Position numbers: made by a program. Shown here in pieces: positions 51,001 to 54,000 of a DNA stretch of 64,000 nucleotides (its first letter is position 1; every line of letters starts with the position of its first letter). The DNA is from Escherichia coli (GTDB taxonomy: Bacteria > Pseudomonadota > Gammaproteobacteria > Enterobacterales > Enterobacteriaceae). The stretch is from assembly GCF_013122565.1 (NCBI RefSeq), contig NZ_CP053258.1, one strand, 5' to 3'.

Positions 51001-54000
51001 TCATATTAGCAATTTCCATTTTTTCGATCAAAATTAAAAAGGGGATTTTTGCGAAAGGTCGAATGTCGTTTGGTTTTTTTTCTTTATTATGTCTGGTGAC
51101 GAGGGGGGATAGAACGTCGGTGCATATAGTAGAGAATTTATCCAAGTCTAAATTATTCTCTATTTTGGTCAGTTTTATTAGTTCATTTGTAGCCATACTC
51201 ATTAAATCATCTGTTATCGGAAATTTATATATGCTCATAGCAGATAATATTGCTTGCTGAATTATTTCTTCAGAAATATCCGCTATCTTTATTGACAAAT
51301 CATGTATTAGATATTTTCCTCCAAGAGATTCTTGTTCAATATAATTTAAACCAGACCTCATAGTAATTTTAACTGGATTAACGAATTTTTCTTCATTTTT
51401 CTTATTTTTGTTTTCCTGATCAGGAACTAATGGTTGCAGTGGTAGGCTATTATTGATATTTCGTGGCTTCATTTTACATTTCTCTCATTTGATTAGAGCA
51501 AAATCCGAACTCGCAGCTTCTGATAATGTCAAATATCACCTTTTCTCATACTTTATTCTATCAAAAATCGCTCATTTTTACTTTTTTTACCATAATGTTA
51601 CTTTGTAGCATCGGCAATTTACATAACTTACATGTTGTTTTTTATATCCTGAAAAAACAGATAGATAGTGTGCGCACTCGAAATGATATTGGTAACATAA
51701 ATAGCTTTATTCGTGATAAACATCTCAAAAGATTTCCTTTATTATATTCGAAATTCATTTGATCAAGGTTATCACCTTATGGAGACGTTACGTAGAATGA
51801 CTATATTTGTTATCGGCACATTAGGGGTATTAATTTTAGTATTGATGGAAGGTGATTATTGAACAGTAACATCGAGTCACGGTAAAAATGTGAGGTATAT
51901 AATGGACATTGAGTTTTCGCAGATTCATGAAATGGTCTATATGCATGATATTGTAAATTCGGACTCGAAAAAGAAACCAAGGATTCCGTTAAAAAAATTC
52001 CTTAATGCTGAGAAGGTTCTCACGCAAACAACATCATGGGCATTAAATTCAAGATATGTGAATGTTAATTCTGTCAGTAAAGTCAACGTAAAGAGTAAAA
52101 TCAAAAACAGTTATATCTCACGATCTGTCAATGATGAGTTTAGTTTAACAGATGATGAAATCAATTCTTTCAAAGAAACGTTAGTCCTTTCCTCTATTGA
52201 TTCACTGAGTAAACTGGTTCTTAATAATCCTCTTTCTGTATTGTTTACATCGACTGTACGAAGGAATAATAATCGAGCTAAGATGAATGTAGAGTTCGAC
52301 TCATGGATTTGCACCAGATGTTGTTGATACATGATATTTTACATTGCAACGAGATGTCTGAAATGAAAGATGTTGATCAAAACTTTGATGCTTTAGACTG
52401 CCATATACTGCATGCATATTTAATTTTATTGTTTTATGATTAACGAGGTTCCATCTTTTTGTTATCTATTTTAGTTTACCTTGCACAATGCATTATTGCT
52501 CTGTTACCAATACTCAAAATAAAAGCATGCTTACCTTGCTTTAGTATATTATAGCTTATACTTTTTTCTGGAAAGACATAAAAATCAGGAATAAGTTCTG
52601 CAAGTCTATCATCATCGACTTGATCCATAATCTCAAACTTATTAACTTTCTTTGATGTTAAATGGGCTGTGTCATAGTTTTCAAGCCATGTGTATTCAAT
52701 ATTTCGCCGTATTGATTTACTTTCTCTGTTACGTTGTTGCCAGGTTCCACTCAACGCAACAGTTCCTGTTTTATTTTTTTTGTTATACATAAAGTCAATG
52801 GTCAGATTTGCTCGCCCCTGGTCATTAAAAATTACCCAATTTGCAGTGCATGTTTCATTATATATCATTTTTTCTGCAGTATAAGAATAGACAATGAAGA
52901 GAATAAACCCACTAATAAAAAGTAAAATAAATAATAAGTTTTTTTTATAATCAATCACGATTAACCTCACGGTAAGACAGGGTTAAACAGCCTGCCACTT
53001 CATGTTGGTTATAGTTTTTATTGCATGCCATAACAATCATCCCTGGTGAGGATTTTGCCAGAGGGAAGTATAACCACGGATATTTTTTACAGTTAATCCC
53101 CGAATCCAGTATCCGTGTTTTATATTTATCGAACTCTTTCAACCCATCAATTGTATCTTCTGTCACATTAAAATGGCAGCCATTAATTTCCGCAACAGTC
53201 TTGTAATCCTTGAAAAATGGCTTCGGTTGATTTTTATTCCATAGCCAATATGCAGAATATGCGCCTATGACAAATGCGCTTAACATAATTAGATAACTTT
53301 TTATATGTTTGAGGATTTTGTTATTGAAATTTTTTGCGCCACCAATGCTCTCTTTGTATCCCGCATTAACTTTTACGGCAGGTGGAGCATTGTGTGTATG
53401 TGCGTCTGTTGACGAGTTTATTACATGATTTTGTATGTTAATGTCATTATGGATCTTGAATCCTCTTCTCGGCACGGTTGCAATAAGTGAGTGGGTAGTA
53501 TCACCAACAGCGCGAAATCCGCGTCTGATAATGGATATGTTCTGATATAACGTGTTAGTTGGCACACGCATGCCTTCTTCTTCCCAGACTCTGGTGAAAA
53601 AATCTTGTTGTGCAACCACATCAGGAAAAGCTTCAAGTAGAAGGGATAAACAACGACTGGCTGGCGTTGTCAGAACGACGTTAAGATCGGCGTTATGTAC
53701 CGATATTAATTTTCGGTGCTCAGGCCAGAACTCGATATTATCGTTAATAATCCAGTACATACGTCAATAAACACTAAATCAATCGAAATGGAGATCACAT
53801 AGTTTGCTAAGTATATTGGTATTTACGGCATAAATATATATTAATTTTATATTTATCATGATGATTGAAATGAGGCTTTAATGTTGCAACGTAAAACTTT
53901 ACGTAAATTAACATGGTTAACATTTATGCCACTATTGTTTGTAAATTCATATTTCGTAATGCTTCTGAATTTTTCGTGTGATGGTTTTAAATACTATGTT

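What the first reader, a model, noticed from the sequence alone, without database searches (positions are those of the whole stretch)
52476..53760. ToxR/ToxS-like regulator pair (yqeI-yqeJ) at the island edge
yqeI has a cytoplasmic winged-helix domain, one TM helix and a periplasmic domain. It is followed by an overlapping gene for a small single-pass membrane protein, as in toxR-toxS. The island encodes six regulators in total (eivF, the etrA-like gene, ygeK, ygeH, yqeI, yqeH).
Basis: partly seen in the sequence, partly recalled or inferred. Interest (0 to 1): 0.45.

Follow-up and report, generated by a model that had tools for sequence, protein, structure and literature searches.

The report
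Known ToxR/ToxS-like membrane regulator pair
The two overlapping genes are yqeI and yqeJ of the E. coli ETT2 island, a membrane-anchored DNA-binding regulator and its small barrel-shaped partner built like ToxR/ToxS of Vibrio, and this reading was already published in 2022, so the finding is correct but not new.

Summary
Window 52951-53760 (-) encodes YqeI, 269 aa. It has an N-terminal OmpR/ToxR-type winged helix, one hydrophobic segment, and a C-terminal domain with four invariant cysteines.

Window 52476-52958 (-) encodes YqeJ, 160 aa, with a GTG start. It has a short tail, one strong TM helix and an eight-stranded barrel. The two genes overlap by 8 nt.

The ToxR/ToxS reading is supported:
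- The YqeI-family profile finds the V. cholerae ToxR DNA-binding domain as its best solved relative (E 3.5e-14).
- In 26 of 26 loci with a close YqeI homologue, from at least ten enterobacterial genera, a YqeJ homologue follows on the same strand. Nothing else in the neighbourhood is conserved.

All six island regulators are present and intact.

None of this is new. Kinch et al. (PNAS 2022) list YqeI/YqeJ as a ToxRS/VtrAC-type co-component cassette and report that the periplasmic domains form a complex. An APEC yqeI deletion phenotype was published in 2020. The signal and the direct targets remain unknown. Low interest.

The parts
52951..53760 (-). yqeI CDS, 269 aa: ToxR-type transmembrane transcription regulator
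   Evidence: ORF. 99% identical to the common E. coli YqeI cluster. Annotated yqeI in RefSeq genomes.
53455..53679 (-). [quoted passage not shown]
   Evidence: Pfam Trans_reg_C, E 2.5e-9. The family profile's best PDB sequence match is the V. cholerae ToxR DNA-binding domain, E 3.5e-14. This is the most conserved part of the protein: mean 66% identity to non-Escherichia homologues.
53236..53298 (-). single transmembrane segment of YqeI (about residues 155-175)
   Evidence: It is the only hydrophobic stretch (KD 1.45). The strongest hydrophobic segment of all 33 homologues lies at the aligned position.
52954..53235 (-). periplasmic domain of YqeI (residues 176-269), with four invariant cysteines
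   Evidence: C195, C224, C246 and C258 are invariant in 33 sequences. The model gives the order strand-strand-helix-strand-strand-strand, with pLDDT mostly 78-92.
52476..52958 (-). yqeJ CDS, 160 aa (GTG start; an alternative GTG at 52970 would give 164 aa): ToxS/VtrC-like partner
   Evidence: ORF. RefSeq start. 96-97% identical to E. coli YqeJ. Alignment A3 holds 97 relatives, 93 of them representatives from a search of 1.84 billion proteins that found 126 hits.
52881..52937 (-). transmembrane helix of YqeJ (residues 8-26)
   Evidence: KD 2.52. The model shows a helix at residues 4-30 with pLDDT 85-97. The N-terminal tail carries two lysines (KK), as expected for a cytoplasmic N terminus.
52482..52856 (-). 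eight-stranded lipocalin-like barrel of YqeJ (residues 35-159), with C37 and C158 on the first and last strands
52951..52958 (-). 8-nt overlap of the yqeI stop and the yqeJ start (GTGATTGA)
   Evidence: Read directly from the sequence. The same 8-nt RTGNNTRA overlap occurs in 25 of 34 homologous pairs: 24 scored, plus L028 after its start was corrected.
52965..52968 (-). GAGG Shine-Dalgarno-like motif 6 nt upstream of the yqeJ GTG, inside yqeI
   Evidence: Sequence. Purine-rich GGAG/GGGG motifs sit at the same place in the homologous junctions. A role in translational coupling is inferred.
54094..54726 (-). yqeH, a LuxR/GerE-type regulator and the outermost island gene, 333 nt upstream of yqeI (context only)
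   Evidence: Pfam GerE. Weak NCBIfam EcpR match. RefSeq annotation. Intact in the window.

Best explanation
yqeI-yqeJ is a two-gene 'co-component' signalling cassette of the ToxR/ToxS and VtrA/VtrC kind.

Shown here:
- YqeI has a ToxR-like winged-helix DNA-binding domain, a variable linker, one TM segment, and a small cysteine-rich C-terminal domain.
- YqeJ has a short tail, one TM helix and an eight-stranded lipocalin-like barrel whose closest solved relatives are ToxS and VtrC.
- yqeJ starts 8 nt before the yqeI stop, behind an internal GAGG.
- The gene pair, and only the pair, is conserved across enterobacterial genera.

Inferred:
- Both proteins sit in the inner membrane with the N terminus in the cytoplasm and the C terminus in the periplasm.
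- The cysteines form periplasmic disulfides: C37-C158 closing the YqeJ barrel, and C246-C258 on the last two YqeI strands.
- The overlap couples translation of the two genes.
- The YqeJ barrel binds the YqeI periplasmic domain. It thereby stabilises YqeI and, probably on binding a small hydrophobic ligand as VtrC and ToxS do with bile salts, promotes the DNA-binding-competent state at the membrane.

From the literature:
- The periplasmic domains form a complex when co-expressed (PMC9214523).
- Deleting yqeI in an avian pathogenic strain changes 587 transcripts, lowers flagellar gene expression, and reduces serum survival, adhesion and colonisation (PMC7552227).

The ligand and the direct DNA targets are unknown.
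For: - Domains and topology.
- ToxR is the best solved sequence relative of the YqeI family (E 3.5e-14, against CadC at 3e-4).
- The YqeJ model has pLDDT 92.9 with a TM helix and 8 strands.
- Foldseek ranks ToxS 8u2f_A (E 2.6e-4), ToxS 8alo_B and ToxS 8u2f_B as hits 1-3, and VtrC 5kew_B as hit 5, with TM-scores normalised to the target of 0.62-0.68.
- A fusion of the two periplasmic domains through a 30-residue linker gave pTM 0.75 over 257 residues. The larger domain is only 52% of the chain, so this value needs both domains to be placed confidently relative to each other. That step is an inference.
- Pair conservation: 26 of 26 close loci have a YqeJ homologue directly downstream on the same strand. 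The overlap is 8 nt in 25 of 34 pairs, 4 nt in 5 and 1 nt in 2. No other neighbour is conserved.
- Literature: PMC9214523 (Table 1, co-expression of the periplasmic domains), PMC10269533 (Table 1), PMC13042144 (introduction), PMC7552227 (phenotype).
Against: - YqeJ has no detectable sequence similarity to ToxS or VtrC, and no Pfam or NCBIfam match in the local libraries. Homology therefore rests on fold and context.
- The YqeI TM segment is only moderately hydrophobic in E. coli (KD 1.45), and lysines flank it on both sides. Its orientation is inferred from the domain logic, not from charge bias.
- I could not compare the fold of the YqeI periplasmic domain with ToxR or VtrA directly.
- I could not inspect the predicted interface, because neither coordinates nor PAE were available.
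- The secretion apparatus of the island is damaged in this window (sctQ frameshift), so an output through ETT2 itself is doubtful.
- No ligand or direct target is known.
- The published yqeI deletion probably also disturbs yqeJ, because the yqeJ start and its ribosome-binding site lie inside yqeI. Complementation of the flagellar phenotype was only partial.
Confidence: 0.85

Rival explanations
1. The pair is an inert remnant. It sits in a horizontally acquired, low-GC island whose secretion apparatus has decayed, is transcriptionally silent, and has no role in this strain.
For: GC is 32-36% at the locus against about 50% in the flanks. sctQ is frameshifted, as in the reference, and the reference annotation splits the SpaN/EivJ gene. 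Kinch et al. describe yqeIJ of K-12 as a remnant of ETT2 (PMC9214523).
Against: Both ORFs are intact here. The locus is kept at 95-99% identity in 3730 of 5426 complete genomes. All six regulators are intact although structural genes are broken. A yqeI deletion has phenotypes in APEC (PMC7552227).
Confidence: 0.1
2. YqeI works alone as a one-component membrane regulator, as CadC does. YqeJ is an unrelated small membrane protein that merely lies downstream.
For: The NCBIfam scan of YqeI gives a weak CadC match (E 3e-4, far below the cut-off). YqeJ shows no sequence similarity to ToxS.
Against: Co-occurrence is strict and the overlap is conserved in 26 of 26 close loci across genera, while all other neighbours change. 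YqeJ has the ToxS/VtrC fold. The fusion model has a high pTM. The periplasmic domains are reported to form a complex (PMC9214523).
Confidence: 0.04
3. YqeJ restrains YqeI instead of activating it. It holds YqeI inactive until a signal releases it, so the wiring differs from ToxS and VtrC.
For: Nothing here gives the sign of the interaction. No tool result bears on it.
Against: In the characterised relatives (ToxS, TcpH, VtrC) the partner protects or activates the regulator (summarised in PMC10269533). There are no data for YqeJ.
Confidence: 0.1

Closest known systems
MarT/FidL of Salmonella SPI-3 and GrvA/FidL of E. coli O157:H7 (the disulfide-containing YqeJ/FidL subfamily)
   Same: A Salmonella homologue is full length (285 aa, 41% identical to YqeI). 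The partner in S. enterica subsp. diarizonae matches the YqeJ profile at E 6e-46 and overlaps by the same 8 nt. The two barrel cysteines and four regulator cysteines are conserved. Kinch et al. call YqeI/YqeJ the orthologues of MarT/FidL.
   Different: The genomic setting differs: ETT2 here, SPI-3 for MarT, which activates the adjacent misL autotransporter gene. No adjacent adhesin target is evident in the window. Only 4 of 98 family members reach even a weak match to Pfam FidL_like.
ToxR/ToxS of Vibrio cholerae and V. parahaemolyticus
   Same: ToxR's DNA-binding domain is the best solved sequence relative of the YqeI family. ToxS is the top fold match of YqeJ. Both proteins share the tail-TM-periplasmic layout, the partner gene lies directly downstream, and the regulator's periplasmic domain carries cysteines.
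   Different: There is no sequence similarity between YqeJ and ToxS. According to Kinch et al. the YqeI periplasmic domain lacks the C-terminal helix of ToxR, and the model here ends in a strand. yqeI and yqeJ overlap, whereas toxR and toxS are listed as non-overlapping. The bile response and the regulon known for ToxRS are not established here.
VtrA/VtrC of Vibrio parahaemolyticus (bile-salt receptor that switches on T3SS2)
   Different: Sequence identity in the structural alignment is 6-9%. VtrA has no periplasmic disulfide (PMC9214523), whereas YqeI has four invariant cysteines. Bile-salt binding and control of the neighbouring secretion system are unproven for YqeIJ.
CadC (one-component membrane regulator)
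   Same: It has the same order of N-terminal winged helix, single TM segment and periplasmic sensor. Weak sequence matches were found.
   Different: CadC has a much larger periplasmic domain and no ToxS-like partner gene. The NCBIfam score of 19.7 is far below the cut-off of 400.

Membership tests
ToxR-like transmembrane transcription regulators (YqeI) | N-terminal OmpR/PhoB-type winged-helix DNA-binding domain with no receiver domain | tested here: met
   Trans_reg_C at residues 28-102 (E 2.5e-9) is the only Pfam family found. The best PDB sequence relative is the ToxR DNA-binding domain, E 3.5e-14.
ToxR-like transmembrane transcription regulators (YqeI) | Single transmembrane segment between the DNA-binding domain and the C-terminal domain | tested here: met
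   One hydrophobic segment at about residues 155-175. It is the strongest segment at the aligned position in all 33 homologues. No dedicated TM predictor was available, and the E. coli segment is only moderately hydrophobic.
ToxR-like transmembrane transcription regulators (YqeI) | Periplasmic C-terminal domain with conserved disulfide-forming cysteines | tested here: met
   C195, C224, C246 and C258 are invariant in 33 sequences. C246 and C258 fall on the last two modelled strands. Disulfide formation itself is inferred.
ToxR-like transmembrane transcription regulators (YqeI) | Periplasmic domain with the alpha/beta fold of ToxR and VtrA | tested here: inconclusive
   The modelled order, two strands, a helix and three strands, agrees with the description in PMC9214523. 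The fold searches of the fusion model returned only matches to the barrel half, and no separate model could be made.
ToxS/VtrC-like lipocalin co-components (YqeJ) | Short cytoplasmic tail, one TM helix and a periplasmic eight-stranded beta-barrel | tested here: met
ToxS/VtrC-like lipocalin co-components (YqeJ) | Encoded directly downstream of the regulator on the same strand, usually overlapping it | tested here: met
   The overlap in the window is 8 nt. The arrangement holds in 26 of 26 close loci. The 8-nt overlap occurs in 25 of 34 pairs.
ToxS/VtrC-like lipocalin co-components (YqeJ) | Detectable sequence similarity to ToxS or VtrC | tested here: not met
   A profile of 98 family members finds no ToxS or VtrC chain in the PDB sequences, even at E up to 10. 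Kinch et al. also report that these families have diverged beyond sequence recognition.
ToxS/VtrC-like lipocalin co-components (YqeJ) | Heterodimer with the regulator's periplasmic domain | tested here: inconclusive
   The fusion model gave pTM 0.75, with both domains at pLDDT about 80-95, which suggests a fixed arrangement. The interface could not be inspected. Complex formation is reported experimentally in PMC9214523.
ToxS/VtrC-like lipocalin co-components (YqeJ) | Binds a small hydrophobic ligand (bile salt) in the barrel | not testable with these tools
   No ligand data exist for YqeJ. This needs binding assays.
YqeJ/FidL subfamily | Sequence homology to the partner of the Salmonella YqeI homologue, and the conserved cysteine pair on the first and last barrel strands | tested here: met
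   The ORF downstream of the Salmonella diarizonae regulator matches the YqeJ profile at E 6e-46. C37 is invariant and C158 at least 90% conserved. The match to Pfam FidL_like is weak: 4 of 98 members, best E 3e-4.

The most novel reading that the evidence does not exclude
YqeJ's barrel is a receptor for a specific host-gut small molecule, such as a bile salt or a fatty acid. Through YqeI this would be the sensory input that sets flagellar, adhesin and ETT2-regulator expression in E. coli. That would explain why the regulators of a decayed secretion island are kept intact in most strains. The fast divergence of the sensor half would then reflect host-specific tuning: YqeJ is 56% identical between E. 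coli and E. albertii, and the YqeI periplasmic domain averages 38% identity against 66% for the DNA-binding domain across genera.
Probability: 0.3. Interest if true: 0.45.

Novelty: already known. Interest (0 to 1): 0.12.

Why it matters
The finding itself adds little. The genes are named and present in about 69% of complete E. coli genomes. The ToxRS/VtrAC reading, the lipocalin fold of YqeJ and the interaction of the periplasmic domains were published in 2022, and a deletion phenotype in 2020.

The signal sensed by YqeJ, the promoters bound by YqeI, and the reason all six ETT2 regulators stay intact while the secretion apparatus decays are all still unknown.

Two small points from this work may help future experiments:
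- The 8-nt yqeI/yqeJ overlap with an internal ribosome-binding site is conserved across genera, although the 2022 paper lists this pair as non-overlapping. Published yqeI deletions are therefore likely to be polar on yqeJ.
- The cassette moves as a two-gene unit and, in several genera, sits next to adhesin genes.

Tried and rejected
- Pfam and NCBIfam scans of YqeJ gave only noise. The precomputed labels PF27292 (YqeJ) and PF27348 (YqeI C-terminal fragment) seen were not hit in the local Pfam scans, so I could not read what they are.
- A word-based protein search with YqeJ found only Escherichia sequences. A full profile search was needed to reach 126 representatives.
- The YqeJ-family profile against PDB sequences found nothing relevant.
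- The promoter and terminator scan of 52200-55200 gave counts no higher than in shuffled sequence: 16 against 15.5 promoter-like sites and 2 against 1.5 terminator-like sites. I assign no promoter or terminator, and whether yqeH-yqeI-yqeJ form one operon stays open.
- Model coordinates and PAE are not exposed. The predicted interface, and whether the last YqeI strand extends the YqeJ sheet, could not be checked.
- I looked for a conserved neighbouring target gene across 26 loci and found none. Adhesin-type neighbours occur in only some loci.
- A two-component reading was rejected: YqeI has no receiver domain and no kinase gene is adjacent.
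Full report
**What is in the sequence**

The stretch is 98% identical to E. coli chromosomes, where the ORFs are annotated yqeI and yqeJ. A match is found in 3730 of 5426 complete E. coli genomes, always on the chromosome.

The window as a whole is an E. coli-like chromosome segment:
- xdh and ygf genes
- tRNA-Gly
- the ETT2 type III secretion island
- yqeH at the island boundary
- then yqeG, yqeF, kduI, kduD, araE and lysR

GC falls from about 50% to 30-40% between roughly 27,000 and 55,000. yqeI and yqeJ are therefore the second and third genes from the right-hand edge, and yqeH is the outermost.

**YqeI**

- Pfam finds one domain, Trans_reg_C (OmpR/PhoB-type winged helix), at residues 28-102, with E 2.5e-9.
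- There is no receiver domain.
- One hydrophobic segment lies at about residues 155-175. In all 33 aligned homologues the most hydrophobic 19-residue window falls at the aligned position, with values of 1.4-2.65. The E. coli segment is at the low end (1.45).
- The last 94 residues carry four cysteines (C195, C224, C246, C258) that are invariant in 33 sequences from many genera.
- A profile of the family, searched against all PDB sequences, finds the V. cholerae ToxR DNA-binding domain first (E 3.5e-14). CadC is far behind at 3e-4.
- Conservation is uneven. Mean identity to non-Escherichia homologues is 66% in the winged helix, 8% in the linker, 27% in the TM segment and 38% in the periplasmic domain.

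**YqeJ**

- The longest ORF starts at a GTG at 52970 (164 aa). RefSeq uses the GTG at 52958 (160 aa).
- I prefer 52958 for three reasons. GAGG lies 6 nt upstream (52965-52968). In many homologous loci the start at this position is the only candidate. In Escherichia sp. E1V33 it is an ATG.
- With this start, yqeJ overlaps yqeI by 8 nt (GTGATTGA).
- YqeJ has a short KK-containing tail, a strong TM segment (residues 8-26, KD 2.52) and two cysteines, C37 and C158.
- Local Pfam and NCBIfam scans find nothing.
- A word-based search finds only Escherichia relatives, and they diverge quickly: 70% identity in Escherichia sp. E4742, 68% in E. marmotae, 56% in E. albertii.
- A profile search of 1.84 billion representatives finds 126 proteins, nearly all 150-165 aa.
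- In an alignment of 98 family members, C37 is invariant and C158 is at least 90% conserved.

**Fold of YqeJ**

AlphaFold2 on that alignment gave a model with pLDDT 92.9. It has a helix at residues 4-30, eight strands and one short helix.

Foldseek against the PDB:
- Ranks 1-3: V. parahaemolyticus ToxS (8u2f_A, E 2.6e-4), V. cholerae ToxS from the ToxR-ToxS heterodimer (8alo_B), and 8u2f_B.
- Rank 5: VtrC (5kew_B).
- TM-scores normalised to the target are 0.62-0.68.
- Ordinary lipocalins follow with much lower scores.

By sequence there is nothing. The family profile finds no ToxS or VtrC chain even at E up to 10. YqeJ therefore shares the ToxS/VtrC fold and layout but is not a recognisable sequence member of the ToxS family.

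**The pair as a unit**

A scan of one genome per species returned 55 loci encoding YqeI relatives.
- In all 26 loci with a close homologue (E below 1e-100 to the family profile), an ORF matching the YqeJ profile follows directly on the same strand. The genera are Escherichia, Citrobacter, Klebsiella, Trabulsiella, Phytobacter, Kosakonia, Enterobacter, Salmonella, Yokenella, Leclercia and Buttiauxella.
- Several more distant loci (Mixta, Serratia, Phaseolibacter, Rosenbergiella) have one too.
- The junction is an 8-nt overlap in 25 of 34 pairs, 4 nt in 5 and 1 nt in 2, with a purine-rich motif just upstream.
- Clustering all neighbouring ORFs shows that only these two genes are shared. Everything else changes from genus to genus.

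This is strong comparative evidence for a functional two-gene cassette with coupled expression.

Some neighbours are surface-adhesin genes:
- an autotransporter directly upstream in Phytobacter (L023)
- a two-partner-secretion haemagglutinin in Buttiauxella (L028)
- PapD-type fimbrial chaperones in five loci

A small LuxR/GerE regulator accompanies the cassette in seven loci, much as yqeH does here. This fits the adhesin-regulating roles known for MarT and PsaE, but it is a tendency, not a rule.

**Predicted complex**

I fused YqeI 176-269 to YqeJ 28-160 through a 30-residue Gly/Ser linker. I did the same for the homologous pairs, 30 of which went into alignment A4, and ran AlphaFold2 on it.
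- Both domains are confident (10-residue block means mostly 78-95). The linker is not (34-41).
- pTM is 0.75 over 257 residues. The larger domain is only 52% of the chain, so I infer that the two domains are placed confidently against each other.
- I could not see coordinates or PAE, so the interface is unverified.
- The YqeI periplasmic domain is modelled as two strands, a helix and three strands, ending in a strand. This matches the published description of YqeI: the ToxR/VtrA core without the C-terminal helix.
- C246 and C258 lie on the last two strands.

**Literature**

- Kinch et al. (PNAS 2022, PMC9214523) list 'E. coli K-12 ECK2845 YqeI / ECK2846 YqeJ lipocalin' among the co-component systems related to VtrA/VtrC and ToxR/ToxS. 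[quoted passage not shown]
- A 2023 survey of transmembrane transcription regulators lists YqeI with YqeJ as its partner (PMC10269533).
- A 2026 ToxRS preprint names YqeIJ among co-component regulators (PMC13042144).
- Xue et al. 2020 (PMC7552227) deleted yqeI in an avian pathogenic strain. They found 587 differentially expressed genes, 26 flagellar genes down, fewer flagella, lower serum survival, lower adhesion, and roughly 3- to 10-fold lower organ loads. Complementation was partial for the flagellar phenotypes.
- One detail differs from Kinch et al., who list YqeI/YqeJ among the pairs that do not overlap. With the RefSeq start they overlap by 8 nt, and this is the commonest arrangement in the subfamily.
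- A consequence is that a yqeI deletion is likely to remove or uncouple the yqeJ start. This may explain the partial complementation, though that is my inference.

**The six regulators**

All are present and intact in the window, each with a DNA-binding domain:
- EivF: AraC-type HTH
- the EtrA-like protein: GerE
- YgeK: receiver plus GerE
- YgeH: Trans_reg_C plus TPR
- YqeI: Trans_reg_C
- YqeH: GerE

None of the four other small island ORFs I scanned showed a DNA-binding domain.

The apparatus gene sctQ carries the same frameshift as the reference, and the reference annotation splits the SpaN/EivJ gene. The regulators are therefore intact while the apparatus is damaged.

**Verdict**

My confidence that this is a ToxRS/VtrAC-type co-component pair is about 0.85.

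The mechanistic steps beyond architecture are inferred from relatives: stabilisation by the partner, ligand binding in the barrel, and membrane-tethered DNA binding. The signal and the direct regulon are the real open questions, and nothing in the sequence settles them.

Noticed in passing
window 38019-39006 and 36748-38059: The type III apparatus gene sctQ aligns gaplessly to a reference copy annotated as frameshifted, so it carries the same frameshift. In the reference annotation the SpaN/EivJ needle-length gene is in two pieces. The secretion system is probably non-functional although all six regulators are intact.
   Followed up: partly
window 50981-51472 (-): The ORF between ygeG and yqeK (ygeF, 163 aa) is intact in this window. 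It is annotated as a frameshifted pseudogene in both reference genomes examined (L001, L002). It has no Pfam or NCBIfam match.
   Followed up: partly
window 29257-29436 (+): A 59-aa GhoT/OrtT-family membrane toxin gene lies at the tRNA-Gly end of the island, next to a glycoside hydrolase family 15 gene. It is 100% identical to the reference, while the surrounding DNA is about 98% identical.
   Followed up: no
whole window: No complete E. coli genome among 5426 matches three of the four stretches queried (2001-27000, 27001-52000, 52001-64000) better than 98.3-98.9% over their full length, core genes (xdh, ygf, araE) included; the yqeIJ stretch itself (52300-53900) tops out at 98.1%. The source therefore seems to be an E. 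coli lineage that is not represented in that collection.
   Followed up: no
L008 and L021 (Trabulsiella odontotermitis contig NZ_LIFX01000004.1); also L009 and L022: Trabulsiella carries two paralogous yqeI/yqeJ-like cassettes on one contig in the same orientation. They are about 5.8 kb apart in the first strain (L008/L021) and about 15 kb apart in the second (L009/L022). This recalls the neighbouring STM0341/0342 and STM0344/0345 pairs reported in Salmonella.
   Followed up: partly
L003:5831-7279 and L026:5845-7293: In Escherichia sp. E1V33 and E. whittamii a 482-aa ORF with a weak winged-helix match, probably a YgeH/HilA-like protein, begins about 550 nt after yqeJ. In the window about 2.5 kb (yqeK, ygeF, ygeG) separates yqeJ from ygeH. 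This end of the island therefore differs between Escherichia species.
   Followed up: no
L023:556-3675, L028:107-2776, L010:1441-2172: In other genera the yqeI/yqeJ-like cassettes lie next to adhesin genes: an autotransporter, a two-partner-secretion haemagglutinin, and PapD-type fimbrial chaperones. This hints that adhesin control is a common output of the family.
   Followed up: partly
window 52363-52443 (+) and 51902-52327 (+): yqeK (141 aa, no family match) and an annotated 26-aa hypothetical ORF converge on the 3' end of yqeJ. Neither has any known function.
   Followed up: no
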